DNA from: a virus
Virus record (IMG/VR): IMGVR_UViG_3300037424_000830
Span: 1-64,000 of that record
Strand: one strand, 5' to 3'
Length of the DNA: 64,000 bases
Below, one piece after another: positions 8,778 to 44,450 of the stretch. The notes below the pieces were generated by a model. The model did no database searches and had not been told where the DNA came from. It was given only the letters and a program-made list of their open reading frames with translations. The stretch's first letter is position 1. Every line of letters begins with the position of its first letter. The translations under genes were made by a program, and so were the position numbers.

Positions 8778-8811
8778 ATAAACAAGCCCTTGAGTGGGAC
8801 GGAGCCGTTTG

Positions 8812-23793: not shown

Positions 23794-24288
23794 TCATGAT
23801 TGATCTGGAACAATGCTAACTCTTGATTCAACGGGACGTTGTTCCTGATCTTGATATGAGCCTTTGTAGGCAAGATCAGTTGGATTTGTAAGCTTGTGAA
23901 AGATGAACTGTGCGATTGGCATCTTGTCGTAGATCTGCACAGTTTCCTTGGAGTGATTAGTAAGCTCCAGAGTGGTATACCCCCGCCAACCAGGTTCCAA
24001 CACAGTGTTCTGGACAGCAATTCCCCGACGAGCCCAGGATGACTTATCATGGACAATCACTAGAAGGTCATCTGGGATCTCCACGCGTTCGACGGTGACT
24101 GCAAGGAGAAAGCCTCCCGGTTCAATATCGACCGATGGTGTGTCAAGGAAGATACGCACATCGTATCCAGCTGGTCCGAGACCATATGAGAGACCCATGA
24201 ATCTGGATCCTGGTTGCTCGAATGGATCGATCACGAGACGACGGCTGTGTCTCACCTGCCAAAGAATATCCTGAGCTGCAAGTATCAT
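23794..24288 (-). CDS. dcd: dCTP deaminase-family protein (dUTPase superfamily)
   Basis: KSSWARRGI and LEPGWRGYTTLELTN match the Dcd motifs (kSs.aRlG, dpGf.G.ltLEl.N). Confidence 0.65.
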   Translation of the reverse strand: MILAAQDILWQVRHSRRLVIDPFEQPGSRFMGLSYGLGPAGYDVRIFLDTPSVDIEPGGFLLAVTVERVEIPDDLLVIVHDKSSWARRGIAVQNTVLEPGWRGYTTLELTNHSKETVQIYDKMPIAQFIFHKLTNPTDLAYKGSYQDQEQRPVESRVSIVPDQS

Positions 24289-24311
24289 GTAGTCCTCCTG
24301 TGTTAAGTGGG

Positions 24312-25001
24312 TTAAGTTTTGGGTTGGTTGATGAGGCTAAGAAGCTCTGAGCGTAAAGAATCAACGGTTCGAAACCTCCCCGACATCTTCGATGTGACTG
24401 TGTCAGAACAGAAATCTTCGATCCCCCGAAACTTGACGCAATAGTGGTCAGCAGTGATGATTACCGCAATGTCGTCGGTCTCGAGTACTACACTCAGGGC
24501 CGCAGATATTTGTTCTGTAAGGCGTTCTTGTACTTGTGGGCGCCGTGAAAAGTACTCCACAATACGGTTGAACTTTGACAAGCCGATCACTTTGTGCGCT
24601 GGAATATACGCAATATGAGCTTTGCCGATAATTGGCATGAAGTGATGTTCACATAGAGATTTCACCTCGATGTTACGCACCAAGATGACCTCGTCGTACT
24701 GGAAACCATTGGGATGGCAAGTGCATTCAGGGAACAGAGTGTAGTTGAGACCCCAGCAAATTTCGTCCAAGTACATCTTTGCAAGGCGTTGAGGAGTGTC
24801 CTTGATCGAAGGATCTTCCATGTTAAGCCCCAGTGTAAAGACAATCGAGTCAAAGTGATTCCCTAGTGCTGAAGCTTGTTCAGCGGCATACTTGGGTTTA
24901 TGAGCAGCTACGAGGTGTTCAGGACGCATCGGCGTTTCAATACCACGCTCGATAAGAAGTCTATGAACTTTAAGGCCGAGATCTCCGTTATAGTCAGTCA
25001 T
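24312..25001 (-). CDS. folE: GTP cyclohydrolase I
   Basis: CEHHFMPIIGKAHIAYIP...VIGLSKFNRIVEYFSRRPQVQERLTEQI is the hallmark FolE core. Confidence 0.85.
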   Translation of the reverse strand: MTDYNGDLGLKVHRLLIERGIETPMRPEHLVAAHKPKYAAEQASALGNHFDSIVFTLGLNMEDPSIKDTPQRLAKMYLDEICWGLNYTLFPECTCHPNGFQYDEVILVRNIEVKSLCEHHFMPIIGKAHIAYIPAHKVIGLSKFNRIVEYFSRRPQVQERLTEQISAALSVVLETDDIAVIITADHYCVKFRGIEDFCSDTVTSKMSGRFRTVDSLRSELLSLINQPKT

Positions 25002-25360
25002 GTGTAGTCTCCTTGAAGTGGTTTAACTTTTTGCTTCTCACGAATGACATCAATTCGTTCCCAGCATTTCTTGAGTTGTTTTTCTGCGGCATCTTCAAGA
25101 CTTATATCGCAAGCTGAACATAACGCAGAGAGTGTAACAATTGTGCCTCCAATCTCGTCAAGCAATTCACCTACTGGACGGCTATAGGTATGACGCACCT
25201 GACCATGTATATCACTCTCAGGAATTCCGAGCGCTTGAGCGACTTCAGTAGCTTCTTCAACAAGACGTAGAACGCGCTCACGTTTGTTCATGGTAACTTT
25301 TTGTCCAAAACATTGTAGAGCCCAAGTTTGGACGAGATTCTGAAACAGTCCTATAGTCAT
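24998..25360 (-). CDS. MazG-like nucleotide pyrophosphohydrolase
   Basis: 120 aa, all helical. RVLRLVEEATEVAQAL is an EExxE-type motif typical of small MazG/NTP-PPase proteins. ATGA overlap with folE. Confidence 0.55.
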   Translation of the reverse strand: MTIGLFQNLVQTWALQCFGQKVTMNKRERVLRLVEEATEVAQALGIPESDIHGQVRHTYSRPVGELLDEIGGTIVTLSALCSACDISLEDAAEKQLKKCWERIDVIREKQKVKPLQGDYT

Positions 25361-25373
25361 GTGTAGCCTCCTG

Positions 25374-26309
25374 TTAAACCTTCTCGTTGGTGAATGTGCA
25401 AGTGCCGTCGTTGTGGATTGTCATATCCTGATAGATACTTGTGAAGAGCTTTTTCATTTGGTTGGCGACATTGAGAAAGATGTCACGCATCTCTTCGTCA
25501 TTTTCGTACTCGCCGAATACTTGTCGAATCTCCTCTTCGGCACCTATTGCAGTTCTCATCGCAATCATATGCCGGATAGCTCGGTGGTTAGCTGTGAAGA
25601 TAATATGCGTTGACATTCCTCCCGGAGCTGTTCTACGGAGGGCTGATGTAAGCTCTTTCTTGATATGGAATGGCATCTTAGGATCGTCAAGCAAAAGACT
25701 CTTGGCAAAGAATGCTACGCGGTCTTCTGCCGTCTTAGATACGATAGTTGTGGCATCAATAAGGAGCTCGCTCATATAGATTGCCCAGTGTCCCGGGTCT
25801 CCATCGAAACCTTCAACGGTTTCTGGGTTCTTAATAAATGGGGCAATGTTTCGCTCAAGCCATCTAGGAGTGAAACATGTTGGTTTGAACATCCCGATGT
25901 CGTCGATACGAACGAAGCGTCCAGACTCTTGCGAGATAGCAACGCCTGCTCTGTGTCGAACAAGTTCGTGGGTGAAGATCCTGGAGACATCAGTACACGC
26001 AAAAGTCACGCTAGCGTGTTCTAGAACCGAGCCGTGTTTTTGTTTGAGGATGTTATGAAGGTAGTCTTTGTTCCCTTCACGGACTTTGTGGACATTAAGG
26101 TTCAGTTGAGGTTTGAAAGAACGGTAGCACAAACGTCCAGCGACTTCGATTACCCATTCACTACCCGTTCTGGCATCAGTAACGAAGCCGTCTTCTACCG
26201 GTTTGTCCTTATCGGTTGTGGCTCCAATTTCTTTTAGGAAGTCCCAAGCGCCTGATGAATGCATCTTGGTTTCTGCAATCACGAATACTTTTGGATTTGT
26301 AAAATGCAT
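25374..26309 (-). CDS. thyX: Flavin-dependent thymidylate synthase
   Basis: ThyX signature HELVRHRAGVAISQESGRF (RHR...S....S.R). Confidence 0.8.
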   Translation of the reverse strand: MHFTNPKVFVIAETKMHSSGAWDFLKEIGATTDKDKPVEDGFVTDARTGSEWVIEVAGRLCYRSFKPQLNLNVHKVREGNKDYLHNILKQKHGSVLEHASVTFACTDVSRIFTHELVRHRAGVAISQESGRFVRIDDIGMFKPTCFTPRWLERNIAPFIKNPETVEGFDGDPGHWAIYMSELLIDATTIVSKTAEDRVAFFAKSLLLDDPKMPFHIKKELTSALRRTAPGGMSTHIIFTANHRAIRHMIAMRTAIGAEEEIRQVFGEYENDEEMRDIFLNVANQMKKLFTSIYQDMTIHNDGTCTFTNEKV

Positions 26310-26310
26310 C

Positions 26311-26889
26311 TTATTCCTCCTGTATTATAAACTGAGCTGGACTACGATCATCAACTCCATGTTTTGTTAGAACGTGTTCCAAGAGCATGAGAAAACAACA
26401 TCCAGCGTGTGCAAGATGGTACAAAGTGCTCTCTTCATCGAAGAATTGGCCCGCCATGTGGTAGTCCATATGACTCTCGGCTGCTCTCAGGAGCCTTGAC
26501 CATGTAAAACCTTCTCCACTATGCCAATTACCAACGCTATATTTCTTTGCGCCGAATGCAAAGACTTTAGCGATCTCCTGTTTACCGAGCAGGAACGCAT
26601 AGCGATCACTAAGCGGGCCAACTACTTCTTGAGCAATGCGTCCTAAAACGATAGTCGTATGTGCAGTCGTATACGCAAGAGTAGAAGCGGAGCCCCCTAC
26701 TTTGAATGTTGTCAAACTAATGTAGGCACCTTCCATCGAGAACTCAAAGTCTCTTGATACGGATGAAATAATACCACGAGACATCTCAACAGCTCGCGCC
26801 GGTAGGAAAAAGATTGGAGGTTTGTCTTTGTCGTGTTTCGTTGCTTGAATCTCGTTGCCAGATACTTCTAGGTGGTTATCCATTATCAT
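26311..26889 (-). CDS. DUF5664-like (dATP/dGTP diphosphohydrolase N-terminal-like) protein
   Basis: KHDKDKPPIFFLP...VFAFGAKKYSVGNWHSG...RAAESHMDYH...HLAHAGCCFLMLLE follows the KHD.gK...fGa.KY..nW...H pattern of this phage family. Confidence 0.55.
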   Translation of the reverse strand: MIMDNHLEVSGNEIQATKHDKDKPPIFFLPARAVEMSRGIISSVSRDFEFSMEGAYISLTTFKVGGSASTLAYTTAHTTIVLGRIAQEVVGPLSDRYAFLLGKQEIAKVFAFGAKKYSVGNWHSGEGFTWSRLLRAAESHMDYHMAGQFFDEESTLYHLAHAGCCFLMLLEHVLTKHGVDDRSPAQFIIQEE

Positions 26890-26895
26890 CCTCCA

Positions 26896-29418
26896 TTAAC
26901 CACACTGTGTGTAGTCGCAATTGGTACACTTCTTACAACCTTCAGCATAGATTACAGCTGGTGCATAACATTTGGGGCACATCTCACCTTTCGGTTCAGA
27001 CCCTTGTTGAATCGGATTCAAGAAGGGAATTGTAGGCTTTTCAGGAGAACTCTCTTCCAAATGATCTTTGCCCCTGTCTTTGTCCTTTACAAGATGACGC
27101 TCGATAACACCTCCAATATAAGCAACAGGACTTGCATAGAATTTACCGTTGATCCATGCAGTATCGTGCATTGAAGTAACTTGTTTCAGCTCTTCTGCCA
27201 CGAATGAAGGGTCAATACCTGACCGCAGAATCCCTGAGATCATCAAGGTTAGTGCTGTCATCCAATCTGAGTGCCTAGCATCCTTAGACGCGAAGAACAT
27301 TTCGTAGGGGCGTCCATCGTCTGACTTGTTGATAGTAATGTACATCGCGGCTGTCATGCTTGGCCAACGTACTTTGTAGGTGTCTCCAGAAAGGACATCA
27401 ACCCTTTTCGCGCGTTCCTTTATCGGGTGCTCATCCGTGGGCCGCAGTTTGGTGTCTGCCAAGCCAATTGATTGTGAGTCCTTGGAGAGATCTTCTAGAA
27501 TAGATCCCCTCACTTTACTTGGACGATATGTTGTGCATCCCTTGCATCCCGTAGCATATGCGAGCTCATACACTGTTATGAACTCATCATATGTCATCTC
27601 CTCAGGACAGTTGACAGTCTTGGATACAGAAGCATCGACCCAAGATTGACATGCCGCTTGCATTCTGATATGTTCAGCTACCGAAAGCTTGCTTGTTGTA
27701 ATCATGTAGTCGGGTAGCTCGGAGGAAAGAGAATCTAACGACATGTCAAGAGAGCGGCCTGTACAGTGTTTCCAGAAGCGGAAAATAAAGCTCTCCTCAT
27801 CATGGTTGACAAAAGAACTATCAGGCTGAAGAATCCTGCGTCTCATTGAATGTGCAAACACTGGTTCAACACCTGAAGAGATGTTTCCGTATGCGAGTGA
27901 AGTCGTGCCCGTTGGTGCAATAGTGTTCAGGACACCGTTGCGAAGACCATGTGTTGCAATACCATCTCGTAGAGTTGAGGGAAGCTTTTTCGCAATGAAA
28001 CCGCAGTCAGTGATCTTCGGGTCGAATAAAGGGAAGCGCTTGCGCTCGATTGCAAGAGCAACAGATGCTTCATAAGAAGCTATTGCAACAGTACGTTGGA
28101 TCTCTTCTGCAATCTTTGCACCCTTGATAGATCCGTATCTGATACCAAGCTGCGCCAAAGCATCAGCTAGCCCAGCAACTCCGAAACCGAGGCGCCGTTT
28201 GTTGAACTCTTCATCGCGCTGGAGATCAAGCGGGTAGTTCGTAACCTCGATGACGTTATCAAGGAAACGGATTCCGAGGAATGTAACTACCTGTAGAAGT
28301 TCAAAGTCGAAGTATGCATCCTCGGTAAATGGGTTCTTAACCATTCTTGATAGTACAGCATGCGCTAGATTGCAGGTACCATATGGTGGAAGGGGTTGTT
28401 CGCCACATGGATTAGTGCAACGTATTGTCTCAACATATTGGAGGTTGTTGAGAGCGTTAACCCGATCAATAAAGATCACACCAGGTTCTGAATACTCGTA
28501 GGTAGTTGTTGTAATCTTTTCCCAGAGATCACGGGCGCGCCAAACGCTATATACGTATTGCTGCACGCCGTCATCGTCTTCAAAGTCGTACTGTTCGAGA
28601 TTTGGGTTTGAACTTAGATCACGAGTAACGGGTGGAATTGTAAAGTGTAACACCCACTCTTCGTCTTCTTGAACAGCTTGCATGAAGGCATCCGATACAA
28701 GGATTGACATATTAAACATTGTCAACCTGCCGGCAGTTTTCTTTGCGTCGATAAACAGTGGTAAGTCGGGATGAGTATCGCTGATTGTAGCCATCATCGC
28801 ACCACGACGAGAACCAGCACTCATAATAGTTTTACACATTGCGTTCCACATATCCATAAATGGAAGTGGACCAGACGCTTGTGCTCCTGGCCCCAATCTA
28901 TGGAGCCGAGCACTGTTTGGACGTAGAGTAGAGAAGTCAGTTCCAATGCCACCACCTTGCTGCATCGTAAGTGCAGCTTCGGTGAGTCCCTGCATTATTC
29001 CTTCCATCGAATCAGGGACTGTCATATTCACATAACAGTTATGTAGCGTCACACGGTTACCAGTTCCGGCTCCAGCGATAATACGACCCCCAGGCATCAA
29101 GAGACCAGACTCCATCGCTGTAAATACCAAGGGTACAAAATCCTGGAGTGGATCCACTTTCTCACCAAAGATTGCTCTAGCTGTCCGGCTTAAAGCTTGC
29201 GTCCACGGGTCCCCAGCAGCAAGCTTTAATTCTGCTGGAGTACAGTATTTGTCGAGACGCACACGCCCTGTCATAGCAGTAGGCGGAAGAGCATTAAAGC
29301 TCTTGTGTAAAGGATCAATGTCACAAATGATGGACAACATATGCGAAATGTCATCCTTTACTGTTGCACGGAAAGAGAACTCTTGGTTCTGGACTTGATT
29401 TTGGTTAAAGATTGACAT
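26896..29418 (-). CDS. nrdJ: Class II (adenosylcobalamin-dependent) ribonucleotide reductase with a C-terminal zinc ribbon
   Basis: RCTNPCGEQPLPPYGTCNLAHAVL active-site block. C-terminal CPKC...CKKCTNC. Confidence 0.8.
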   Translation of the reverse strand: MSIFNQNQVQNQEFSFRATVKDDISHMLSIICDIDPLHKSFNALPPTAMTGRVRLDKYCTPAELKLAAGDPWTQALSRTARAIFGEKVDPLQDFVPLVFTAMESGLLMPGGRIIAGAGTGNRVTLHNCYVNMTVPDSMEGIMQGLTEAALTMQQGGGIGTDFSTLRPNSARLHRLGPGAQASGPLPFMDMWNAMCKTIMSAGSRRGAMMATISDTHPDLPLFIDAKKTAGRLTMFNMSILVSDAFMQAVQEDEEWVLHFTIPPVTRDLSSNPNLEQYDFEDDDGVQQYVYSVWRARDLWEKITTTTYEYSEPGVIFIDRVNALNNLQYVETIRCTNPCGEQPLPPYGTCNLAHAVLSRMVKNPFTEDAYFDFELLQVVTFLGIRFLDNVIEVTNYPLDLQRDEEFNKRRLGFGVAGLADALAQLGIRYGSIKGAKIAEEIQRTVAIASYEASVALAIERKRFPLFDPKITDCGFIAKKLPSTLRDGIATHGLRNGVLNTIAPTGTTSLAYGNISSGVEPVFAHSMRRRILQPDSSFVNHDEESFIFRFWKHCTGRSLDMSLDSLSSELPDYMITTSKLSVAEHIRMQAACQSWVDASVSKTVNCPEEMTYDEFITVYELAYATGCKGCTTYRPSKVRGSILEDLSKDSQSIGLADTKLRPTDEHPIKERAKRVDVLSGDTYKVRWPSMTAAMYITINKSDDGRPYEMFFASKDARHSDWMTALTLMISGILRSGIDPSFVAEELKQVTSMHDTAWINGKFYASPVAYIGGVIERHLVKDKDRGKDHLEESSPEKPTIPFLNPIQQGSEPKGEMCPKCYAPAVIYAEGCKKCTNCDYTQCG

Positions 29419-29421
29419 GGT

Positions 29422-29730
29422 TCAAGAACCTTTGTGGAGTGTTAAGACTTTGGATTCACCTCTTGAAGCTCCTAGAGCCCCATTAGCTCCATTAGCTTGT
29501 GAGTGTTCAGGACGCTTCGTACCATAGATTATTTGTTCTTGGAGAGTATTGAGTTGTCCGAGAAGCGATTTCCGATGAGGCCCGAGAACGTATGTAAGTT
29601 CACGTAAGGCTTTGTTAACATCTGAGACGGTAACTCGGTTAGGATGCCTTCCGTTTACTGCGAGACCAACATGCCAAATTACAAGGGTTTTCGATTCAAG
29701 GGTGTTATTTATCTGTGCTGCAAGATTCAT
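29422..29730 (-). CDS. Hypothetical protein
   Basis: 102 aa. Tightly packed between polA and nrdJ. No motif recognised. Confidence 0.45.
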   Translation of the reverse strand: MNLAAQINNTLESKTLVIWHVGLAVNGRHPNRVTVSDVNKALRELTYVLGPHRKSLLGQLNTLQEQIIYGTKRPEHSQANGANGALGASRGESKVLTLHKGS

Positions 29731-29739
29731 CTCATCACC

Positions 29740-32436
29740 TTAGTGTTGTGTTATGTTGTGTTGCTCTTCAACGCTTTTGATCCACTTACTGAAGTCAGTC
29801 AGATTTCCCCAACGCTCGCCAACTTTAGCATCGGCTTTGAATGGTACTCTTGTAAGACCCATCATCTTAGGTGTAGCACTAAGCTCTTCGGTTACGTAGT
29901 AATACACTTCCTTTATCAACGGGATGTCGTAGGGTGTCTTCAAGAGTATTGAATCGTGGACAGTATTGTTAACGACGGTCTTGAAGTCCTTCTTCAAACG
30001 CTTACGAACCCGAATACCTGTATCTAACACGATATCGGACGCTGTTGATTGGTGTGGGAAGTTAGCATATTCGTTCTGCAAGTCACGAACCTTCTCGTAT
30101 GTGATCAGATTGGGGCGTTTCTTTCGCCCATACACAGTGGTAATTGTCTTCCCGGTACGAGCAGCTTCCATACACATATTGATAAAAGCCTTGGCTTTCG
30201 GAAAGCGTTTGAACCAGGCTCCGATATATTGCTCGGCCGCTGCAACGGGTTGCTCGATTTGTTCAGCAAGACCGAAAGCTGTGATACCATAGACGATCCC
30301 AAAGTTAACATTCTTGGCAATCATCTTCTGTTCACCTAGTACACGCTCCTTGGACTTTTCTGTGTCATCACTATATGCATTGAATTGTTCGACGTATTTG
30401 TCGTAGAGCTCTGGAGACCAATCGGTGTAGTATCCAAAGATTGTTGCACGGACTTCATCGTGAAGTGATAGCCCTTCAGTATTATAGATCCTGCAGAGCT
30501 CTTCATCACCAGACATGCATGCGAGAGATCTTAACTCTGCCTGATTCAAATCAGGTTCGATGTAGATGAATCCCTTTGGAGCTCTATATTGTCCACGAAT
30601 CCAAGGTAGTCGTGGGACGTTTTGGACATTTGGATCAGAAGATGCTAGACGCCCTGTAACAGTTCCAGGGATCTTGTATGTGGTGTGAACTCTTCCATTA
30701 TCTCCAGCACCAACTATCTTTAGGAGAGGTTTTACATACGTAGACTCAAGCTTTTGGATTTTGCGGTATTTAAGGAGGTTAGTAACGAATGGATGAGCAG
30801 GTAGCTTCTCAAGAGTGTCAACATTCGTTGATTGCCCGATGGGTCCAAGCTTGAGTCTTCCGTAGAGGAGTTCTTGAAGTTGTTTGGGTGAGCGTGGGTT
30901 AACGCCGTAACCCATGGTTTCCTTTGCTATTCTATCCATCTCGGACAGAAAAGGTTTTGCTTCTTTCCTGAGACGCTTCAAATTGCCAATCGTCCATTCA
31001 CGATCGAGATCGATACCCTCAAGTTCAATCTCTGCAAGGTATTCTGTGGCTGGAATAAACAATCGAGTGTAGAGCTTCTCGGTATCTTTGTCAGCCTTCA
31101 CAAGAGGTCGGAGAATGTTATGCAGATGCCAAGTCTTGACAACATCATACATCAGATACGGATAGAGTATCTCCTTTGGAATGTATGCATAAGAAGTGGG
31201 TTCCTTCTTTTTCGTTGCTTTCTTTTTCACTCCGATCTTGAGACCTGCTTCTAGTTCTTCCTCATCATCCTCTTCTTCCCAGTCCTCCTTGATAACAACG
31301 CTTTTCACTTTTGGGAGGTGTGTTTCAAGCATATCCTTGTGTTTAGGAGTACCAAGACGATCGGAAGCAACTTGATCCAAGTCGTGAATCCCCCTCCGTT
31401 CGTTAAGGCCATATGACATAAGCATAGTATCTTCATCAACACGGGCATCCATAATACCACGATGCCAGAAGAACTTAATGTCAAACTTACCATTGTGCCA
31501 AACATACTTGAGGTGCTCAGGGAAGAGATAGTTCCCATAGAAGTCTTGCTCTACAATGTAACATGTCTCTCCCCAATACAAACCGAAGCAAAGAATACCG
31601 TTAGAGTTGTACTGACCAACAACTTTGTTGTCTGCTCGATGGCTGAATGAAGCCGTTTCAATATCGCTTCCAACTACCGTTCCCGTTCGAAGAGAGAACA
31701 TCTTTTGACGAAGCTTATGTGCTTTATCCCACGAGTCAATAATTTCGATAGGTGCGTTAATTGTATTACCTAGAAATCTCTTTTCTGCTAGTTCGAGCTT
31801 TTGATTCGCTGCAGCTGCAATCTCCGCCATCTCTTCTTGCATTGTGGTAGTCTTGATCGGGACTTCACTTTGCGGGATCTCTCTATCATTGATTACACAA
31901 GAAATAGCCTGTTGAATGTCTTCACGGAATTGTTTGTAGCTTCCAGTTCCCCTTAGAAGATATGCTGGGTGTACAGTAGGAAAGAAGCCACTAGTAGATG
32001 TCCCCTGTAAGAGCGCTCGATAATGAGTGCCTCGTACTCGTGTAATTTTAAGCCCCAAGTTGCCTGTAATAGACCACAGAGCAGCATTGCCTAAACCTAT
32101 TACTAATGATCTTGGGTACGCTTCAATCTCTGCAAACAATCGCGGTCTGCAATTGAGGCAAGCAGTCTTGAGCTTGTCCTCATCTTTGTTTCTCGGAAAG
32201 CATTCAAGAGCATTGCAGAAGTAAGGTTCAACACGATCGCTCGGCGCGATGTTCAGATTGTCCCAAGCTACTTTCAAAGCTTCGTCAATTACTTTCCCTG
32301 ATGGTCCGACAAATGGTTGTTGCTTGTATAATTCAATAGCTCCCGGAGCTTCACCGACAATTACTAGTGGAGAGTCTTTTGGCCCCCTGCCGTGAACTTT
32401 AAGCCCACCGAAAATGCATTTAGTACAGCTAGTCAT
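29740..32436 (-). CDS. polA: Family A DNA polymerase with 3'-5' exonuclease and an N-terminal family-4 UDG-like domain
   Basis: UDG4-like: CTKC, VIVGEAPG, FVGPSG, HPAYLLR. Exonuclease: SDIETAS, HNGKFD, YLMYD. Polymerase: DLNQAELR, RLASSDPNVQNVP, KNVNFGIVYG, VHDS. Confidence 0.85.
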   Translation of the reverse strand: MTSCTKCIFGGLKVHGRGPKDSPLVIVGEAPGAIELYKQQPFVGPSGKVIDEALKVAWDNLNIAPSDRVEPYFCNALECFPRNKDEDKLKTACLNCRPRLFAEIEAYPRSLVIGLGNAALWSITGNLGLKITRVRGTHYRALLQGTSTSGFFPTVHPAYLLRGTGSYKQFREDIQQAISCVINDREIPQSEVPIKTTTMQEEMAEIAAAANQKLELAEKRFLGNTINAPIEIIDSWDKAHKLRQKMFSLRTGTVVGSDIETASFSHRADNKVVGQYNSNGILCFGLYWGETCYIVEQDFYGNYLFPEHLKYVWHNGKFDIKFFWHRGIMDARVDEDTMLMSYGLNERRGIHDLDQVASDRLGTPKHKDMLETHLPKVKSVVIKEDWEEEDDEEELEAGLKIGVKKKATKKKEPTSYAYIPKEILYPYLMYDVVKTWHLHNILRPLVKADKDTEKLYTRLFIPATEYLAEIELEGIDLDREWTIGNLKRLRKEAKPFLSEMDRIAKETMGYGVNPRSPKQLQELLYGRLKLGPIGQSTNVDTLEKLPAHPFVTNLLKYRKIQKLESTYVKPLLKIVGAGDNGRVHTTYKIPGTVTGRLASSDPNVQNVPRLPWIRGQYRAPKGFIYIEPDLNQAELRSLACMSGDEELCRIYNTEGLSLHDEVRATIFGYYTDWSPELYDKYVEQFNAYSDDTEKSKERVLGEQKMIAKNVNFGIVYGITAFGLAEQIEQPVAAAEQYIGAWFKRFPKAKAFINMCMEAARTGKTITTVYGRKKRPNLITYEKVRDLQNEYANFPHQSTASDIVLDTGIRVRKRLKKDFKTVVNNTVHDSILLKTPYDIPLIKEVYYYVTEELSATPKMMGLTRVPFKADAKVGERWGNLTDFSKWIKSVEEQHNITQH

Positions 32437-32442
32437 CGGATA

Positions 32443-32457
32443 GCTCAGCTCAGTTCA
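32443..32457. repeat. Pentamer repeat (minus strand TGAAC TGAGC TGAGC) giving TGA in three frames
   Basis: Plus strand reads gctca gctca gttca. The middle TGA is the dpdA stop. The array ends 6 nt before the polA start region. Confidence 0.85.
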
Positions 32458-33301
32458 TTTTCTTACCAAGCGGTCTCTCAGCAAAGAGTTCTGCAATAGA
32501 TGGTGTTACTACTTCAAATTTGAAGTCACTTGGATAACCTGAATTATCGCCTATCATGTTGCGAACTCTGACAATGTTAGCTGCAGTTTGTTGTGTGTAG
32601 TTTCCTGTCTCCCACCAGTCACCACGCGATCCAGCATCGTTAGAGATCATAAAGAGAGTTTTGGATCTTAATGGTACAGCACTGTCGATCCCGATCACGC
32701 CTGGTACAAAACAACATCTTAGATCGTCAAAGGGGTTGTCGCTAAAACCCATTAGATGGATTCTCGCTTTGGGTAAGAGCATCCATGTTGCTTGAATTGC
32801 GTCAAGTCTTGAAGGTGCGATACGTCCTGTAATGTTCCGCGGGAGTCCTACCCAAGTGATGTCTGGAAGATTCATTGCGAGAACCTCAAGACACCGAAGC
32901 CAGTCGATCCATGTCTCACCTTGTGGAATTATAAGAGGCTCAACTGAAGTACTGTACTTCTTGCTGAGACGTTGAAATTCTTCGTACCCCTTGAATGTTG
33001 ACTCGACTGTTTCAGCACTCTTCTTGTATACATCGGGTAATGCAATTGTGTCGGCGCGTACAACACTGGCTGCTTCAAACAGCATATCCATCGTCACTGA
33101 ATCACCGAGTTCAACGACAGAGTTATCCATGTGGACGAAACCGTTAACACGCCTCGCAAAGAGTTCGTGATACTCATGTCGGCTCTCTTCACTCTTGATT
33201 ACATCATGCGCGAGAAGTAAAAAGTAACTCCCGAATAGTCTTGGATCCTTCTTGAGTTCGGAATAGATTCTTGGTGGGCATACAGGTGCAAAGAAAGCCA
33301 T
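32450..33301 (-). CDS. dpdA: TGT-like DNA transglycosylase candidate (DpdA-like)
   Basis: 283 aa. Blocks HMDNSVVELGDS, IIPQG, VGLPR, HLMGFS and GIDSAVPLR resemble the TIM-barrel tRNA-guanine transglycosylase/DpdA pattern. Adjacent to queE-queD-queC. Confidence 0.6.
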   Translation of the reverse strand: MAFFAPVCPPRIYSELKKDPRLFGSYFLLLAHDVIKSEESRHEYHELFARRVNGFVHMDNSVVELGDSVTMDMLFEAASVVRADTIALPDVYKKSAETVESTFKGYEEFQRLSKKYSTSVEPLIIPQGETWIDWLRCLEVLAMNLPDITWVGLPRNITGRIAPSRLDAIQATWMLLPKARIHLMGFSDNPFDDLRCCFVPGVIGIDSAVPLRSKTLFMISNDAGSRGDWWETGNYTQQTAANIVRVRNMIGDNSGYPSDFKFEVVTPSIAELFAERPLGKKMN

Positions 33302-33342
33302 GGTTGTCGTCCCGATCTTTGATTTGAATTATTCCAATTTTT

Positions 33343-33376
33343 ATTATAGAATATCACATGGATGAAATCAAGAGTC
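33343..33376 (-). promoter_or_regulatory. Sigma70-like promoter, class I (GGACTC-TTGATT-N17-TATAAT)
   Basis: Minus strand reads ttGGACTCTTGATTtcatccatgtgatattcTATAAT. -10 at 33343-33348, -35 at 33366-33371, GANTC at 33372-33376. Confidence 0.6.
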
Positions 33377-33422
33377 CAAATGATATTCCGTCACAGACGC
33401 ATTCTTACCTACTTACTCACAC

Positions 33423-34340
33423 CTACTTACCACGAGCATTACCCCAAACGAGAACGTGAAGCTGCGGAAGGAAACGATACACCTTGAGTCCGGGATGCTG
33501 AAAGATGTCTTGCGCTGTCAACTCGAAACACTCCATGAGTGTCTGGGTTAGTTCTGCAGTGTTCTTTGGTTCTTGTCCTGTAATACCAAGAGCTATTCCA
33601 GAGCCTGTCTTACCATCAAGTGTTGGTGGGTAAGGATTTCCAAGCGACAGAAACATTCTCCCCTCCTGTTGTAGGGGATGGATAAAGAGTGTTACAATGT
33701 CTGCGATCATTGCTGCGAATTCAAGATCCTGTGCAGAAAAAACTGGGATCTTAATATTGAAACCAGGATGATGTGCAAATTTGTGGCATGCGTCAACAAA
33801 CTTGTCTCGCTCGAACTTCTCTCCCATCCCAGGAGGCTTTGGACTGATGGTAATCGCGTCAAGCATATTTATCCAGCTTGGTGAAAGTGTACCCTGCGTT
33901 TCGACCGCGACTTTGAACTCCATCGTCTGGAGACCTCGAACGAGAAAGCCAAGATCATGGATAGCCGGGTTACCGCCAGAGAGTGTTATCCAAGGTACAA
34001 AAGGGAGATCAGCAACTGCTGAGAGTATTTCAGTAGACTCCATCCACTTAGCGTTAGCTTTCACATATCGGGGGTCAACAGCATGAAGCGAGTCACACAT
34101 TGTGCATCGATAATCACACAACCCGAAACGAATGAAATGTGTCTGTGTTCCAGCGACGAAACCTTCACCCTGGATTGTCGGTCCAAAGATCTCCATTACA
34201 GGGACTTTCTTAACCTTGTCGGGTTTGATTAGTGCTGACTCTGTATCTGAACGCTGACCTTCTGCAACTACCGACTCGTTTACTTCGTCGATTGTTGTCT
34301 TGTAAATATGCGGGTCAGCGTTAGCGTCAGTGTTAGACAT
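33423..34340 (-). CDS. queE: 7-carboxy-7-deazaguanine synthase (radical SAM)
   Basis: CDYRCTMCDS (CxxxCxxC) and ITLSGGNP. ATG 34340 has a GAGGAA RBS; the ORF-track start 34478 would overlap queD. Confidence 0.75.
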   Translation of the reverse strand: MSNTDANADPHIYKTTIDEVNESVVAEGQRSDTESALIKPDKVKKVPVMEIFGPTIQGEGFVAGTQTHFIRFGLCDYRCTMCDSLHAVDPRYVKANAKWMESTEILSAVADLPFVPWITLSGGNPAIHDLGFLVRGLQTMEFKVAVETQGTLSPSWINMLDAITISPKPPGMGEKFERDKFVDACHKFAHHPGFNIKIPVFSAQDLEFAAMIADIVTLFIHPLQQEGRMFLSLGNPYPPTLDGKTGSGIALGITGQEPKNTAELTQTLMECFELTAQDIFQHPGLKVYRFLPQLHVLVWGNARGK

Positions 34341-34353
34341 TTGTTTGGGTTCC

Positions 34354-34905
34354 TCAAGTTTGTTGCGTTTGTTGCGTTTGTCGTGTTTGAGCGTATTCAG
34401 GATAAGGATCTTGGACAAAATAGGATGCAGAGTTGCCTTCATGTTCAGCAACGGTAACTTTGCGAAGTAAGACACCATTGTAGCCGTTATCAGAAATCCA
34501 GCTTTCAGTATACTGATAGATCATGTAAGCCATTGCTTCGCACCCACAAGCGGGAACAATACGCATCAGGATAAGGCCGTCGCGTTGCATCTGATAGAAC
34601 TTGTCAATCATGGGATCGTCAGATGCGACTAAGGTTGTATGGTCGAAAGTACTTTCGAGCCAGCCGCGAAGGCTCTTGAGGGATCCGAAGTCTACAACCC
34701 AATTACGGGCGTCGAGAGTTGATGCCTCAAACGTAAAGTGGACTTTCAACGCATAGCCGTGTAAGAACCTACAGTGAGACTCTGCACGCCACTGACGAAA
34801 GCAACAAGAGAGCCCCACAGAGTGGTTATATGTCTTGGTAGATTCAAACCGTCCAATACGCAAAACTTTGTTGGCATCAGTTTGTTCAAGCGGAAACTTT
34901 TCCAT
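34354..34905 (-). CDS. queD: 6-carboxy-5,6,7,8-tetrahydropterin synthase-like (PTPS/QueD family)
   Basis: CCFRQW...CRFLHGYALKVHFTFE...VVDFGSLK follows the QueD/PTPS pattern. ATG 34905 after AGGAG. Confidence 0.65.
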   Translation of the reverse strand: MEKFPLEQTDANKVLRIGRFESTKTYNHSVGLSCCFRQWRAESHCRFLHGYALKVHFTFEASTLDARNWVVDFGSLKSLRGWLESTFDHTTLVASDDPMIDKFYQMQRDGLILMRIVPACGCEAMAYMIYQYTESWISDNGYNGVLLRKVTVAEHEGNSASYFVQDPYPEYAQTRQTQQTQQT

Positions 34906-34968
34906 AAGGCTCTCCTGGTTCACTAGTTCACAGTCTCACCAACTCATTAGTTTACTGGCTCGTGAGTG

Positions 34969-35865
34969 TCAAGGACGCCTTATTGGGATATCAGCATACT
35001 TTGTCAAGTCCATGATGCCTGCTATTTTGAAGGCTTCTTTACGGGAGCGACAAGTAGGACAGACACCACAATGTAGCTCCTCACCTTTGTAACAAGACCA
35101 AGTGTTTTCGAAAGGAACGCGATGTTTGGCGCCAAGCTCGACAACTTCAGACTTCATCAACCACTGAAGCGGTGTGTGTAAACGTACTGCTCTGTAAGTG
35201 CCAATGTATATAGCGTTTGCCATGGCGCCAATGAACTCTGGTGTGCAATCGGGGTATGCCCAACCACGTGCATCTTCGGAGTGGGCTCCAAAGTAGATCC
35301 CAGCATGAACACTATCCATATCTGGATCGTGAGTAGACTCACCGTGCACATCTTCAAGCTCTTTGAATTGTTTGTTCACCCACTTCTGTGCATGAGCTGT
35401 GATTGCAGAGAGTAAGGTACCGTTACGAAATGGTACATATGTTGGTGACACTCCCTTGATATCATTGTAGGAAATGTTGGGAACCTCAACATTTCCGATA
35501 CTTTCTGCGGAGAGCATAACGGACTCTCCAGACAGAAGCTTTCCAACGTCGAGAATAGTATGTTTGATCCCCAATTGAATGCAGGTTCGGGCAGCATATT
35601 CAATCTCCTTTTTGTGCCTTTGGCCGTAGTCAATTGATACAGCCTCGACCCAATTTACTAGAGACAGAGCTTTGCAACGTTCAATTGCAATCACGTTCGT
35701 AGCGTCAGGTGCATAGTCATCGATAGCTTTGTAAAGGCACGTAGTGGAGTCGAGGCCACCTGAAAGAAGCACGAATGCTTTCGAACGTGGAAGTTCATCA
35801 AAGACGAAAATCTTCTCGACTTGGTCAGCTACAACTTCTTCATCGCTAACTTTGTAAATGTTCAT
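34969..35865 (-). CDS. queC: 7-cyano-7-deazaguanine synthase
   Basis: PP-loop VLLSGGLDSTT, DYGQRH, YVPFRN, YPDCTPEF, and the C-terminal zinc site CYKGEELHCGVCPTCRSR. Confidence 0.8.
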   Translation of the reverse strand: MNIYKVSDEEVVADQVEKIFVFDELPRSKAFVLLSGGLDSTTCLYKAIDDYAPDATNVIAIERCKALSLVNWVEAVSIDYGQRHKKEIEYAARTCIQLGIKHTILDVGKLLSGESVMLSAESIGNVEVPNISYNDIKGVSPTYVPFRNGTLLSAITAHAQKWVNKQFKELEDVHGESTHDPDMDSVHAGIYFGAHSEDARGWAYPDCTPEFIGAMANAIYIGTYRAVRLHTPLQWLMKSEVVELGAKHRVPFENTWSCYKGEELHCGVCPTCRSRKEAFKIAGIMDLTKYADIPIRRP

Positions 35866-36248
35866 GTTTCTGACTCCTTTGGGTCGGGTAGCTCATCTGG
35901 TAAGTTCGCAGTTCTAACTAATCTGAGCTGCGGTCTAAGAAGATGTTGTGATTGTGGTTGGTCTGATTCCAAATTCGGCACAGATGTAGACACTGTGGAG
36001 ATTGGGGCTGAAGTTGGATACTTCGAAGGATCCCAGTTTCCATCAGCGATAAAGCGGGTGACTTCCTCTCTATGAATCCGATAAGTACATCCGACAGTGA
36101 ATGCCCGAATTTTGTTCTCACGAACCATTGCTAGAGCTGTGGGGTATGAAACATATCGTTCCGGGAAATCTGCACGAAGGTACTTTACGAGCTCGTTAAG
36201 AGAAAGCCACCCCCTCTCGGCGAGCTTATTAGCCAGGGAGGAAGCCAT
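35862..36248 (-). CDS. Excisionase/MerR-type HTH DNA-binding protein
   Basis: LSLNELVKYLR...YPTALAMVRENKIRAFTVGCTYRIHREEVTRFI resembles the excisionase-family HTH. Start is ATG 36248 or GTG 36269. Confidence 0.5.
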   Translation of the reverse strand: MASSLANKLAERGWLSLNELVKYLRADFPERYVSYPTALAMVRENKIRAFTVGCTYRIHREEVTRFIADGNWDPSKYPTSAPISTVSTSVPNLESDQPQSQHLLRPQLRLVRTANLPDELPDPKESET

Positions 36249-36753
36249 CGCCGCCGGATACTCCACCACGAGGCGCCATGATATCCTTCACGCGATTGCG
36301 CATCTGAACAGGTTGTCCTTCTGGCTTGTAGGGTTCGATATCGACTTTGATACGAACCGGCTTGCCAATAAGATAACCTTCGTCGGCAATCTTCTTCGCA
36401 TTGAATGGGCCGGCGAGAAGTTCAGGAGCGAACTGCTTGATCTGGCGCTTTGTGCCGCCGAGAGCTTTCTCCGAGAACGAAACATATGTGAACTGTTTGC
36501 GGTTGGCAAATTCACCTTCGACGACCGCAAATCGCATCGACCACATCGGCTTGGAAGAATTCTTGCTGATCTCGTACTTGCATTCGTCGATGACAGCGTC
36601 GTAGATTCCTTTGGGAATATTTTCCCATGACATTTCCTTGACGTCGGTAAGGTCGACAACAAGACCTTCGTCTTCCTGCGAGATTCCAATACCCTGCGTT
36701 TCGAATTCACCGCCAGATGCCGTTTCAGGATCTCCATCGTTCATGATAGTCAT
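36229..36753 (-). CDS. DUF669-family (SSB-like) protein
   Basis: IPKGIYDAVIDECKYEISKNSSKPMWSMRFAVVEGEFANRKQF matches the DUF669 core. Adjacent to the Sak4-like ATPase, as is usual for this family. Confidence 0.6.
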   Translation of the reverse strand: MTIMNDGDPETASGGEFETQGIGISQEDEGLVVDLTDVKEMSWENIPKGIYDAVIDECKYEISKNSSKPMWSMRFAVVEGEFANRKQFTYVSFSEKALGGTKRQIKQFAPELLAGPFNAKKIADEGYLIGKPVRIKVDIEPYKPEGQPVQMRNRVKDIMAPRGGVSGGDGFLPG

Positions 36754-44421: not shown

Positions 44422-44450
44422 ATTATAGCTGATTTCAAGAAAACCCTCAA
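44422..44450 (-). promoter_or_regulatory. Sigma70-like promoter, class II (TTGAGGGT-N-TATAAT)
   Basis: Minus strand reads cTCTTGAGGgttttcttgaaatcagcTATAAT, with a 17-nt spacer. Confidence 0.55.

What the first reader, a model, noticed from the sequence alone, without database searches (positions are those of the whole stretch)
23794..35865. Full preQ0 pathway plus a TGT-like DpdA candidate: predicted 7-deazaguanine modification of the phage DNA
The minus strand encodes four enzymes of preQ0 synthesis:
- FolE (24312-25001, CEHHFMPI...QVQERLT)
- a QueD/PTPS-like protein (34354-34905)
- radical-SAM QueE (33423-34340, CDYRCTMC)
- QueC (34969-35865, SGGLDS ... CGVCPTCRSR)

Directly downstream of queE, behind its own promoter, is a 283-aa protein (32450-33301). 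Its blocks HMDNSVVELGDS, HLMGFS and GIDSAVPLR fit the tRNA-guanine-transglycosylase/DpdA pattern.

In phages, FolE+QueD+QueE+QueC+DpdA is the established route to replacing dG with 2'-deoxy-7-cyano-7-deazaguanosine or derivatives, which protects against restriction. I see no QueF, no amidotransferase-QueC fusion and no ArcS-like gene. The simplest prediction is therefore dPreQ0, or a derivative made by an unrecognised enzyme.

Three points are atypical:
- folE lies about 7.5 kb away from dpdA-queEDC, separated by thyX, nrdJ and polA.
- QueC is 298 aa, against about 220-230 aa for bacterial enzymes. It has an N-terminal extension and an apparent insertion around 35280-35380.
- The QueD-like protein reads HGY where I expect the metal-binding HGH.
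Basis: partly seen in the sequence, partly recalled or inferred. Interest (0 to 1): 0.78.

Follow-up and report, generated by a model that had tools for sequence, protein, structure and literature searches.

The report
Phage preQ0 pathway with DpdA3-like transglycosylase
This phage carries the four genes that make the modified base preQ0 and, next to its DNA polymerase gene, an unannotated relative of the enzymes that swap guanine for such bases in DNA, so its genome is very probably chemically disguised against host restriction enzymes.

Summary
FolE, QueD, QueE and QueC lie at the stated coordinates and match their families.

The 283-aa protein (32450-33301, minus strand) has no Pfam, NCBIfam or PHROG match. 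Three results still place it in the transglycosylase superfamily:
- Its AlphaFold model (pLDDT 92.8) is a (beta/alpha)8 barrel, and its 50 best PDB matches are all tRNA-guanine transglycosylases.
- Its best named viral match is DpdA3 of Cellulophaga phage phiST.
- Profile-profile comparison with the DpdA3 family gives 99.1% probability (E 1.4e-18).

D59, D90 and D206 are invariant, and D206 aligns with the TGT nucleophile.

In 80 viral contigs the gene always sits between the que genes and a UDG-fused polA. Its clade co-occurs with QueC (38/39 long loci) and never with DpdL. The phiST-type clade shows the reverse (DpdL 46/46, QueC 0/46).

Best reading: guanine in phage DNA is replaced by preQ0 through a QueC-linked sister clade of DpdA3. 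The final base and the extent of replacement are untested. This is a known kind of system with a distinct, unannotated enzyme clade.

The parts
24312..25001 (-). folE, GTP cyclohydrolase I (229 aa): first step, GTP to dihydroneopterin triphosphate
   Evidence: Pfam PF01227 1.7e-58. NCBIfam NF006824 260.6 bits (cut-off 202) and TIGR00063 211 bits (cut-off 181.6). FolE was found in 38 of 39 long loci of the family.
34354..34905 (-). queD, 6-carboxytetrahydropterin synthase (183 aa), with the motif CxxxHGY
   Evidence: Pfam PTPS 4.3e-17 and PHROG 2389 6.8e-44. The catalytic Cys and two His are kept. HGY instead of HGH is shared with four related phages and with phiST QueD.
33423..34340 (-). queE, radical-SAM 7-carboxy-7-deazaguanine synthase (305 aa)
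   Evidence: TIGR03365 196.6 bits (cut-off 206.1), PHROG 2076 1.5e-35, and the CDYRCTMC cluster motif.
34969..35865 (-). queC, 7-cyano-7-deazaguanine (preQ0) synthase (298 aa)
   Evidence: Pfam PF06508 6.2e-50 and TIGR00364 147.8 bits (cut-off 150.3). The PP-loop SGGLDS and the Zn motif C..CGVCPTC are present. The internal insertions are shared with related phage QueCs.
32450..33301 (-). DpdA3-like minimal TGT-fold transglycosylase (283 aa). Predicted catalytic residues: D59 (acid/base), D90 and Q127-G128 (base recognition), D206 (nucleophile)
   Evidence: AF2 model pLDDT 92.8 with eight beta-strands alternating with helices. Foldseek PDB top 50 are all TGT. BFVD hit to phiST DpdA3, E 6e-13. 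hhalign against the DpdA3 family: 99.1%, E 1.4e-18. Invariant residues. D206 aligns with ArcTGT D249 and E. coli D264. Synteny.
33343..33371 (-). Promoter-like site (TTGATT, 17 nt, TATAAT) in the 121-nt gap between queE and the transglycosylase gene
   Evidence: Best consensus match in 32300-36400 (10 of 12), but the count of sites in the region is not above the shuffled expectation. Sequence read. This is a consensus match only.

Best explanation
The phage makes preQ0 from GTP with its own FolE, QueD, QueE and QueC. The 283-aa protein next to the DNA polymerase gene is a stripped-down tRNA-guanine-transglycosylase-fold enzyme of the DpdA3 lineage. It exchanges guanine in phage DNA for preQ0, giving 2'-deoxy-7-cyano-7-deazaguanosine, which shields the genome from restriction enzymes and similar defences.

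By analogy with TGT and bacterial DpdA, the inferred chemistry is as follows. D206 attacks C1' and forms a covalent enzyme-DNA intermediate while guanine leaves. D59 acts as general acid/base. D90 and Q127/G128 read the Watson-Crick and 2-amino edge of the base. preQ0 then displaces the enzyme.

Shown here: gene identities, fold, homology to DpdA3, conserved residues, and strict genomic linkage to QueC-containing pathways. Inferred: DNA as the substrate, preQ0 as the inserted base, the roles of D59 and D90, and the protective function. The fraction of G replaced is unknown; characterised DpdA3 phages replace all of it (PMC10516641).
For: Pathway enzymes match their families.

Fold:
- The AF2 model has pLDDT 92.8 and is an eight-stranded beta/alpha barrel.
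- The 50 best PDB matches are all TGTs, E 2.5e-7 to 6e-6.
- BFVD matches include phiST DpdA3 (E 6e-13), Vibrio phage nt-1 DpdA2 and mycobacteriophage 'queuine tRNA-ribosyltransferases'.

Homology to DpdA3:
- hhalign against phiST DpdA3 alone: 96.4%, E 1.3e-9.
- hhalign against the DpdA3 family: 99.1%, E 1.4e-18 over 226 columns.
- A plain HMM of the family hits phiST DpdA3 at 1e-11 and Bacillus phage BSP7_057 at 1e-26.
- phiST DpdA3 itself matches Pfam TGT at 98.8% by HHpred (PMC10516641).

Active site:
- Twelve residues are invariant across both clades, including three Asp (D59, D90, D206), Q127-G128 and H182..G185. They sit at or just after the C-terminal ends of successive strands in the model.
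- D206 aligns with ArcTGT D249 and E. coli TGT D264. Both are the known nucleophile position.

Genomic context, 80 IMG/VR loci:
- polA lies within 4 kb downstream in 56 of 56 loci with enough flank.
- Of 39 loci of 15 kb or more, FolE, QueD, QueE and QueC were each found in 38, and DpdL in none.
- The same order is seen in Brevundimonas phage MaInes and in three other metagenomic phages that are 36-38% identical.
- The remote Bacillus phage BSP7 homologue also sits in a queC-queD-queE-folE ... X-polA cluster.
- No QueF, Gat-QueC, ArcS, DpdL, DpdM or DpdN was found in the window.
Against: - There is no significant sequence match to Pfam TGT, NCBIfam or PHROGs. Residue-level matches to solved TGTs are sub-threshold (E 0.067 and 0.27).
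- No similarity to the experimentally validated DpdA1 of phage 9g is detectable.
- The Zn site conserved in TGT and bacterial DpdA is absent.
- No member of the DpdA3 lineage has been shown to work in vitro or in E. coli: the authors report that their attempts failed (PMC10516641).
- Predictions of the final base from gene content have been wrong before: fdPreQ1 was found instead of dPreQ1, and dCDG instead of dG+ (PMC10516641).
- About 4.8 kb of the source contig (68,823 bp) lies outside the window and could not be read.
Confidence: 0.72

Rival explanations
1. Same genes and same transglycosylase, but the base finally present in the DNA is not preQ0. It could be ADG or CDG (for example if the enzyme prefers an earlier intermediate or the nitrile is hydrated), or a further derivative made by an unrecognised phage or host enzyme.
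For: Gene-content predictions have failed for related systems. Flavobacterium phage immuto_2-6A was expected to carry dPreQ1 but carries fdPreQ1, and STSV-2 was expected to carry dG+ but carries dCDG. The authors also judged DpdA3 'unlikely to insert preQ0' (PMC10516641). Many window ORFs have no family match, and 4.8 kb of the contig is unseen.
Against: QueC is kept in 38 of 39 long loci of this clade and is absent from all 46 long loci of the DpdL-linked clade. This argues that the nitrile product is what this clade uses. Clustering of 80 loci found no further conserved unknown gene near the cluster. No QueF or Gat-QueC fusion was found in the window or in the 80 loci.
Confidence: 0.15
2. 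The enzyme does not act on finished DNA. It exchanges the base on a free deoxynucleotide (dGMP or dGTP), and the phage's own polymerase then incorporates the modified dNTP. This would be a pre-replicative route.
For: - The gene lies directly upstream of polA in every locus with enough flank (56/56).
- Characterised DpdA3 phages replace 100% of G, and DpdA3 expressed in E. coli did not modify plasmid DNA.
- The ADG nucleoside was seen in cells infected with CP220 (PMC10516641).
- The window also encodes a MazG-like protein overlapping the folE start, and a protein with the dATP/dGTP diphosphohydrolase domain.
- MaInes has a dNMP kinase and a phosphoribosyltransferase flanking folE.
Against: - No TGT-fold enzyme is known to act on mononucleotides.
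- The validated DNA enzyme DpdA1 of phage 9g is likewise small, acidic and encoded close to the polymerase gene (separated only by the processivity-factor gene), so these traits do not discriminate.
- The MazG-like and diphosphohydrolase-domain genes are not conserved across the family (1 and 5 of 80 loci by BLASTP).
- The authors of the DpdA3 work conclude that the modification is post-replicative (PMC10516641).
Confidence: 0.06
3. The que genes are auxiliary metabolic genes that boost queuosine or preQ0 supply for host or phage tRNA. The 283-aa protein would then be a tRNA transglycosylase, or would have nothing to do with DNA modification.
For: The fold family is best known from tRNA enzymes. 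One source names a homologue 'queuine/archaeosine tRNA-ribosyltransferase'.
Against: - The protein lacks the Zn subdomain and the C-terminal domains that TGTs use to hold tRNA (283 aa against 375-582 aa).
- No tRNA gene is present in the window.
- No QueF or QueA-type genes are present.
- The gene is embedded in the replication module in all loci.
- Its closest characterised relatives come from phages with fully substituted DNA (PMC10516641).
Confidence: 0.04
4. The protein is an unrelated TIM-barrel enzyme (for example an AP-endonuclease-like or sugar-acting barrel), and its resemblance to TGT is a generic barrel similarity.
For: There are no curated family hits. TM-scores to TGTs are moderate (0.49-0.59). 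BFVD also lists AP-endonuclease-family and isomerase-like barrels, at E of about 4e-3 or weaker.
Against: - All 50 top PDB hits are TGTs, with no other barrel family among them.
- Homology to DpdA3 is significant at profile and HMM level.
- The D..D..QG..H.G..DS pattern and its spacing match TGT/DpdA.
- The near-perfect co-occurrence with 7-deazaguanine synthesis genes has no explanation under this reading.
Confidence: 0.03

Closest known systems
DpdA3 of Cellulophaga phage phiST (CGPG_00065) and its family (Cui, Hutinet et al., NAR 2023, PMC10516641)
   Same: - Same size class (259 against 283 aa) and the same minimal barrel without a Zn subdomain.
- hhalign 99.1%, E 1.4e-18.
- Twelve shared invariant residues, including DN, D, PQG, R, H..G and DS.
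- Both lie in a 7-deazaguanine synthesis cluster close to the polymerase gene.
   Different: - Only 18-24% identity. Single-sequence searches from either side do not reach the other clade; a family HMM of the window's clade does reach phiST DpdA3.
- The pathway partner differs without exception. This clade goes with QueC (38/39) and never with DpdL; the phiST clade goes with DpdL (46/46) and never with QueC.
- Clade-specific conserved residues flank the active-site motifs: H32/Q, S61/G, E64/D, R155/K, S187/G, A208/C, R226/P, WW/YF.
- The phiST product is 7-deazaguanine. Here preQ0 is expected.
DpdA1 of Escherichia phages 9g and CAjan (Queuovirinae)
   Same: Same predicted job: it inserts preQ0, made by phage-encoded FolE, QueD, QueE and QueC (Gat-QueC in 9g), into phage DNA. 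It is also small, acidic and without the CxCxxC Zn motif, and is encoded close to the polymerase gene. Motif logic is similar: LDSGAF / HGFG / CDSSSW against MDNSVVE / HLMGFS / GIDSAVP.
   Different: No detectable profile similarity (hhalign probability 0.2%). DpdA1 has been shown experimentally to insert preQ0 and modifies 0.1-30% of G at specific motifs (PMC10516641). Nothing is known experimentally for this clade.
Bacterial DpdA (Salmonella Montevideo Dpd system) and tRNA-guanine transglycosylases (TGT, ArcTGT)
   Same: Same TIM-barrel fold, and these are the best structural matches. All have three invariant Asp with similar spacing: 95/130/256 in SmDpdA, 59/90/206 here. The Gln/His-Gly and Gly-loop positions fall at matching distances.
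   Different: This protein lacks the CXCX2CX22H Zn site and the large insertions that bind tRNA or DNA in those enzymes (PMC10164549). Bacterial DpdA also needs the ATPase DpdB; no DpdB/ParB-like partner was seen here.
[quoted passage not shown]
   Same: 36% identical protein and the same gene order, queC-queD-queE-(small ORF)-X-polA ... RNR ... folE, in a genome of about 69 kb. They are the only close homologues among 50,697 phage records.
   Different: They are annotated as hypothetical proteins, and their DNA chemistry has not been examined. They use a class I RNR and have a dNMP kinase and a phosphoribosyltransferase next to folE.

Membership tests
TGT/DpdA superfamily (tRNA-guanine and DNA-guanine transglycosylases) | (beta/alpha)8 barrel whose nearest structural relatives are TGTs | tested here: met
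   The AF2 model has pLDDT 92.8 and eight strands. The Foldseek PDB top 50 are all TGT or ArcTGT, E 2.5e-7 to 6e-6, probability 1.00.
TGT/DpdA superfamily (tRNA-guanine and DNA-guanine transglycosylases) | Invariant nucleophile Asp (Zm D280, Ec D264, ArcTGT D249, SmDpdA D256) | tested here: met
   D206 is invariant in 50 of 50 sequences of both clades. It aligns with ArcTGT D249 in the best PDB profile hit and with Ec D264 in hhalign. Both alignments are sub-threshold overall but agree in register.
TGT/DpdA superfamily (tRNA-guanine and DNA-guanine transglycosylases) | Invariant general acid/base Asp and base-recognition Asp (SmDpdA D95, D130) | tested here: inconclusive
   D59 and D90 are invariant. 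They lie at or just after the ends of strands 3 and 4 and have TGT-like spacing. No significant residue-level alignment to a solved TGT covers them.
TGT/DpdA superfamily (tRNA-guanine and DNA-guanine transglycosylases) | Structural Zn site CXCX2CX22H | tested here: not met
   The protein has four Cys, none in this pattern, and ends soon after the barrel. Phage 9g DpdA1, a validated enzyme, also lacks the motif, so this is not defining for phage DpdAs.
TGT/DpdA superfamily (tRNA-guanine and DNA-guanine transglycosylases) | Significant match to the curated TGT profile (Pfam PF01702) | tested here: not met
   No Pfam, NCBIfam or PHROG hit. The precomputed Pfam field is also empty for homologues of 9g DpdA1, so this filter misses known phage DpdAs.
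TGT/DpdA superfamily (tRNA-guanine and DNA-guanine transglycosylases) | Guanine / 7-deazaguanine base-exchange activity on nucleic acid | not testable with these tools
   This needs an exchange assay or mass spectrometry of DNA.
DpdA3 (as defined from phiST CGPG_00065 by HHpred/PSI-BLAST, PMC10516641) | Detectable homology to phiST CGPG_00065 | tested here: met
   BFVD E 6e-13. hhalign 96.4% against the single sequence and 99.1% against the family. The family HMM gives E 1e-11. Bacillus phage BSP7_057 bridges both clades.
DpdA3 (as defined from phiST CGPG_00065 by HHpred/PSI-BLAST, PMC10516641) | Encoded within a phage 7-deazaguanine synthesis cluster | tested here: met
DpdA3 (as defined from phiST CGPG_00065 by HHpred/PSI-BLAST, PMC10516641) | phiST-type context: DpdL present, QueC absent | tested here: not met
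   This clade: QueC in 38/39, DpdL in 0/39. The phiST clade: DpdL in 46/46, QueC in 0/46. It is therefore a sister clade, not a phiST-type member.
DpdA3 (as defined from phiST CGPG_00065 by HHpred/PSI-BLAST, PMC10516641) | Complete replacement of G in virion DNA | not testable with these tools
   This needs LC-MS/MS. The only hint is that DNA of the cultured relatives MaInes and StAshley survived a dsDNase step (PMC10070969).
DpdA1 / DpdA2 | Sequence-profile similarity to validated DpdA1 (9g) | tested here: not met
   hhalign probability 0.2% with the single sequence and with a 19-sequence profile. DpdA2 of Vibrio phage nt-1 is only a weaker structural match, E 8.5e-6.
preQ0 biosynthesis pathway (FolE, QueD, QueE, QueC) | All four enzymes present with catalytic motifs | tested here: met
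   - FolE is above the equivalog cut-off.
- QueD: PTPS is above the Pfam cut-off; Cys and two His are retained, with HGY in place of HGH as in phiST QueD.
- QueE: 196.6 bits against a cut-off of 206.1, with the CX3CX2C motif.
- QueC: 147.8 bits against a cut-off of 150.3, with the PP-loop and Zn Cys motif.

The most novel reading that the evidence does not exclude
The minimal DpdA3-lineage enzymes, including this QueC-linked clade, may not be post-replicative DNA enzymes at all. They may exchange guanine for the 7-deazapurine on a free deoxynucleotide. The phage's own UDG-fused polymerase, encoded immediately downstream in every locus, would then build a genome in which all G is replaced, here by dPreQ0. 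This would explain the 100% substitution seen in DpdA3 phages and the failure of DpdA3 to modify plasmids in E. coli.
Probability: 0.07. Interest if true: 0.85.

Novelty: new variant of a known kind. Interest (0 to 1): 0.5.

Why it matters
Phage 7-deazaguanine DNA modification is an established counter-defence. Its detection rests on recognising the transglycosylase, and this clade is invisible to Pfam, NCBIfam and PHROGs. It is annotated 'hypothetical' in the two cultured phages that carry it.

The clade is nevertheless large. A profile search of the 50%-identity protein library gave 565 clusters at E 1e-30 or better and 4566 at E 1e-3 or better.

The clean split between a QueC-linked clade and a DpdL-linked clade gives a natural experiment on how a minimal TGT barrel chooses its 7-substituent, together with a short list of candidate specificity residues. 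It also bears on the published view that DpdA3 enzymes are unlikely to insert preQ0.

If the DpdA3 habit of complete replacement holds here, these would be the first genomes fully substituted with dPreQ0. That would be relevant to restriction, CRISPR evasion and sequencing artefacts.

Pipelines that use DpdA HMMs to separate nucleic-acid modification from secondary metabolism would probably misfile such clusters, because this clade matched no curated profile tested here.

Tried and rejected
- Curated profile libraries (Pfam, NCBIfam, PHROGs) gave nothing for the 283-aa protein. Single-sequence and family-profile searches of PDB sequences gave only sub-threshold TGT hits.
- hhalign against E. 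coli TGT and against 9g DpdA1, alone or as a profile, was not significant. The DpdA1 profile had low diversity, with all hits at least 70% identical.
- I considered an acidic pI (5.6; family median 5.5) as an argument against DNA binding. I dropped it because the validated DNA enzyme 9g DpdA1 (pI 5.64) and E. coli TGT (5.97) are equally acidic.
- I considered adjacency to polA as an argument for a nucleotide-level role. It does not discriminate, because 9g dpdA1 also lies close to the polymerase gene.
- Megablast of the cluster against 50,697 phage genomes found no match.
- Attempts to read the unseen 4.8 kb of the source contig failed. The ORFs at the window end are not on record with those start codons, and only a 1.4-kb contig was retrievable for the exact protein.
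- A search of the first 50 kb of Campylobacter phage CP220 for its DpdA3 found nothing. The rest of that genome was not fetched, so the distance to the Campylobacter and Flavobacterium DpdA3 branches is unknown.
- MazG-like and dATP/dGTP-diphosphohydrolase-domain genes were considered as parts of the system. They are not conserved with the family.
- The supplementary tables of the DpdA3 paper are not held. Whether the authors' DpdA3 list already includes the Brevundimonas phage proteins could not be checked.

Full report
**1. What is in the sequence**

The minus strand between 23.8 and 36.3 kb carries a replication and nucleotide-metabolism module. The genes, in order of increasing window coordinate:

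| Coordinates | Product |
|---|---|
| 23794-24288 | dCTP-deaminase-like protein |
| 24312-25001 | FolE |
| 24998-25360 | MazG-like protein |
| 25374-26309 | ThyX |
| 26311-26889 | protein with the dATP/dGTP-diphosphohydrolase N-terminal domain |
| 26896-29418 | RNR with a TSCPD domain |
| 29740-32436 | family A DNA polymerase with an N-terminal UDG domain |
| 32450-33301 | the 283-aa candidate |
| 33423-34340 | QueE |
| 34354-34905 | QueD |
| 34969-35865 | QueC |

- FolE passes the NCBIfam equivalog cut-off.
- QueE (196.6 against 206.1 bits) and QueC (147.8 against 150.3 bits) fall just below theirs. Both match the phage QueE-like and QueC-like PHROGs strongly and keep their cofactor motifs.

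The window is most of a phage genome. It has an RcGTA-like siphovirus tail module and a terminase. The identical protein is on record from a 68.8-kb metagenomic contig.

**2. The candidate protein**

It has no hit in Pfam, NCBIfam or PHROGs.

A database search found 124 homologues, none with a Pfam domain. An exhaustive profile search found 4566 cluster representatives at E 1e-3 or better and 565 at 1e-30 or better.

An AlphaFold2 model built on 50 homologues is confident (pLDDT 92.8, pTM 0.89). It shows eight strands alternating with helices.

Foldseek against the PDB returns tRNA-guanine transglycosylases in all 50 top places.

Against predicted viral structures, the second-best match (E 6e-13) is a 259-aa protein of Cellulophaga phage phiST. 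I identified it as CGPG_00065 by its length (259 aa) and its position in the que gene cluster of the phiST genome. CGPG_00065 is the founding member of the DpdA3 subfamily (PMC10516641).

Sequence comparison agrees:
- hhalign of the family against phiST DpdA3 alone gives 96.4% (E 1.3e-9).
- hhalign against a 38-sequence DpdA3 alignment gives 99.1% (E 1.4e-18 over 226 columns).
- A plain HMM of the family finds phiST DpdA3 at 1e-11.
- A remote homologue in Bacillus phage BSP7 is hit by both family HMMs, at 1e-26 and 7e-19.

No similarity to DpdA1 of phage 9g is detectable.

**3. Active site**

Across both clades, 12 positions are invariant: L30, Y44, D59, N60, D90, Q127, G128, R165, H182, G185, D206 and S207. 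In the model, the polar ones among them lie at or just after the C-terminal ends of successive strands, which is the catalytic face of a TIM barrel.

TGTs and bacterial DpdA have three invariant aspartates: acid/base, base recognition and nucleophile. A Gln/His-Gly pair and a Gly-rich loop follow at characteristic spacings (PMC10164549).
- The spacings here are 59, 90, 127, 152, 184 and 206.
- Salmonella DpdA has 95, 130, 181, 206, 236 and 256, so the two patterns track each other.
- The merged profile's best PDB sequence hit is archaeosine TGT (E 0.067). It aligns the xIDSA motif with FDSA, whose Asp is D249, the nucleophile.
- hhalign with E. coli TGT places D206 on D264.
- These residue-level alignments are individually below significance. 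The roles of D59 and D90 rest on position and conservation only.

The Zn site of TGT and bacterial DpdA is absent, as it is in 9g DpdA1.

**4. Genomic context**

Brevundimonas phage MaInes carries a 36% identical 'hypothetical protein' in the order queC-queD-queE-small ORF-X-polA ... RNR ... dNMP kinase-folE. Three metagenomic phages with 36-38% identical homologues show the same order.

Counts from 80 IMG/VR loci:

| Feature | Count |
|---|---|
| polA within 4 kb downstream | 56 of 56 loci with enough flank |
| FolE, QueD, QueE, QueC (each) | 38 of 39 loci of at least 15 kb |

All four genes occur together in 35 of those 39 loci.

Clustering all ORFs of these loci showed no further conserved unknown gene. 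It also showed that folE usually lies directly upstream of X; the distal position seen in the window is a frequent alternative.

The remote Bacillus phage homologue also lies in a queC-queD-queE-folE ... X-polA cluster.

**5. A clade split by pathway end point**

I repeated the survey on 74 loci of the phiST-type DpdA3 clade. Results for loci of at least 15 kb:

| Clade | Long loci | QueC | DpdL |
|---|---|---|---|
| Window's clade | 39 | 38 | 0 |
| phiST-type DpdA3 | 46 | 0 | 46 |

DpdL is the QueD paralogue proposed to decarboxylate CDG to 7-deazaguanine.

The two sister clades therefore pair with different final bases. This supports preQ0 as the substrate here. It also singles out clade-specific conserved residues next to the active-site motifs as candidate specificity determinants.

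No E. coli-type QueF and no Gat-QueC-length fusion occurs in the window or in the 80 loci. Pfam found no QueF, ArcS, formyltransferase or DUF3109 in the window.

**6.

- *folE at a distance.* This is a common arrangement in the group.
- *Long QueC.*
  - The insertion at about residues 163-196 (35280-35380) is present in all five aligned group QueCs.
  - A second variable insertion, at residues 52-73, is shared with two of them.
  - Only the 24-residue N-terminal extension is particular to the window, and it may reflect start-codon choice.
- *QueD HGY.* CxxxHGY is found in all five QueDs of this phage group that I aligned and in phiST QueD. phiST DNA is fully substituted with a CDG-derived base, so that QueD must work (PMC10516641).

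**7. Mechanism and its limits**

The best-supported reading is post-replicative exchange of G for preQ0 in phage DNA, by a covalent Asp206 intermediate, giving dPreQ0 as protection against restriction. The fold, the homology, the conserved residues and the genomic linkage are shown. The substrate, the product and the extent of replacement are inferred.

No DpdA3-lineage enzyme has yet been reconstituted (PMC10516641). Product predictions from gene content have been wrong before.

One literature hint is worth recording. In the study that isolated MaInes and StAshley, all contigs of the winter 'ssDNA virome' mapped to these two dsDNA phages. That virome was made by removing dsDNA with a dsDNase (PMC10070969). 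This fits nuclease-refractory DNA but proves nothing.

**8. Comparison and novelty**

The system is a member of the known class of phage 7-deazaguanine DNA-modification systems. Its transglycosylase belongs to the DpdA3 lineage in the broad sense. However:
- It forms a separate clade, 18-24% identical to the phiST type.
- It has a different and exclusive pathway partner.
- It is missed by all curated profile libraries.
- It is known in only two cultured phages among 50,697 records.

I rate it a new variant of a known kind, bordering on 'new member'. Interest is moderate. It is not surprising in principle, but it is widespread and directly testable in culturable phages, and it is informative about substrate choice in a minimal TGT scaffold.

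Noticed in passing
window 29740-32436 (-): The family A DNA polymerase carries an N-terminal uracil-DNA-glycosylase-superfamily domain (PF03167, 8e-20) and a weak 3'-5' exonuclease match. The same fusion follows the transglycosylase gene in the related loci inspected. A 2025 preprint describes UDG-fused phage PolA as a subfamily (10.1101/2025.03.26.645540).
   Followed up: partly
window 24998-25360 (-) and 26311-26889 (-): A 120-aa MazG-like protein (weak Pfam hit; PHROG 8593, 3.7e-36) overlaps the folE start by 4 nt. A 192-aa protein carries the dATP/dGTP diphosphohydrolase N-terminal domain (PF18909, 3.3e-19). phiST also has a MazG/dUTPase-like gene overlapping folE (PMC10516641). By BLASTP these genes are not conserved across the family (1 and 5 of 80 loci). 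Any role in guanine-nucleotide pool control is open.
   Followed up: partly
L001 (Brevundimonas phage MaInes) 17302-19135: In the cultured relative, folE is flanked by a dNMP kinase and a gene annotated as xanthine phosphoribosyltransferase. A purine phosphoribosyltransferase beside a 7-deazapurine pathway could in principle make a preQ0 nucleotide. No homologue was seen in the window.
   Followed up: no
literature on L001 relatives (PMC10070969): MaInes and StAshley have about 50% GC, whereas the other Brevundimonas phages in that study have 59-66%. They were the only dsDNA phages recovered from the dsDNase-treated 'ssDNA' fraction of the winter sample. The window itself has about 46% GC.
   Followed up: partly
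window 1-23671 (+): The structural module has an RcGTA-like tail set (DUF2460, Phage_BR0599, Phage-tail_3, Rcc01698_C), a 1766-aa ORF (8794-14094) that is presumably the source of the tape-measure Pfam hits, a protein with F5/8 type C domains, and an endolysin with PG_binding_1 plus Peptidase_M15_4. This tail type, together with the Brevundimonas relatives, suggests an alphaproteobacterial host. The host was not tested.
   Followed up: no
L009 (Bacillus phage BSP7) 6851-7639; also Bacillus BSTP phages and Weizmannia phage Youna2: A third, remote branch of the same minimal TGT-like superfamily is annotated as hypothetical or mis-annotated (NadR, integrase, polynucleotide kinase in the BSTP records). 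It sits in a queC-queD-queE-folE ... X-polA cluster. These cultured Bacillus phages are further candidates for 7-deazaguanine DNA.
   Followed up: partly
window 48364-50874 (-), 52355-53338 (-), 44447-44797 (-): Other replication-module genes: an 836-aa DUF3854 plus P-loop protein (probable primase-helicase), an ATP-dependent DNA ligase, and a small GNAT acetyltransferase. About 20 further ORFs on this strand have no family match.
   Followed up: no
window 34354-34390 (-), C-terminus of QueD: QueD ends in a glutamine/threonine-rich tail (QTRQTQQTQQT) that is absent from the aligned homologues. Its significance is unknown.
   Followed up: no
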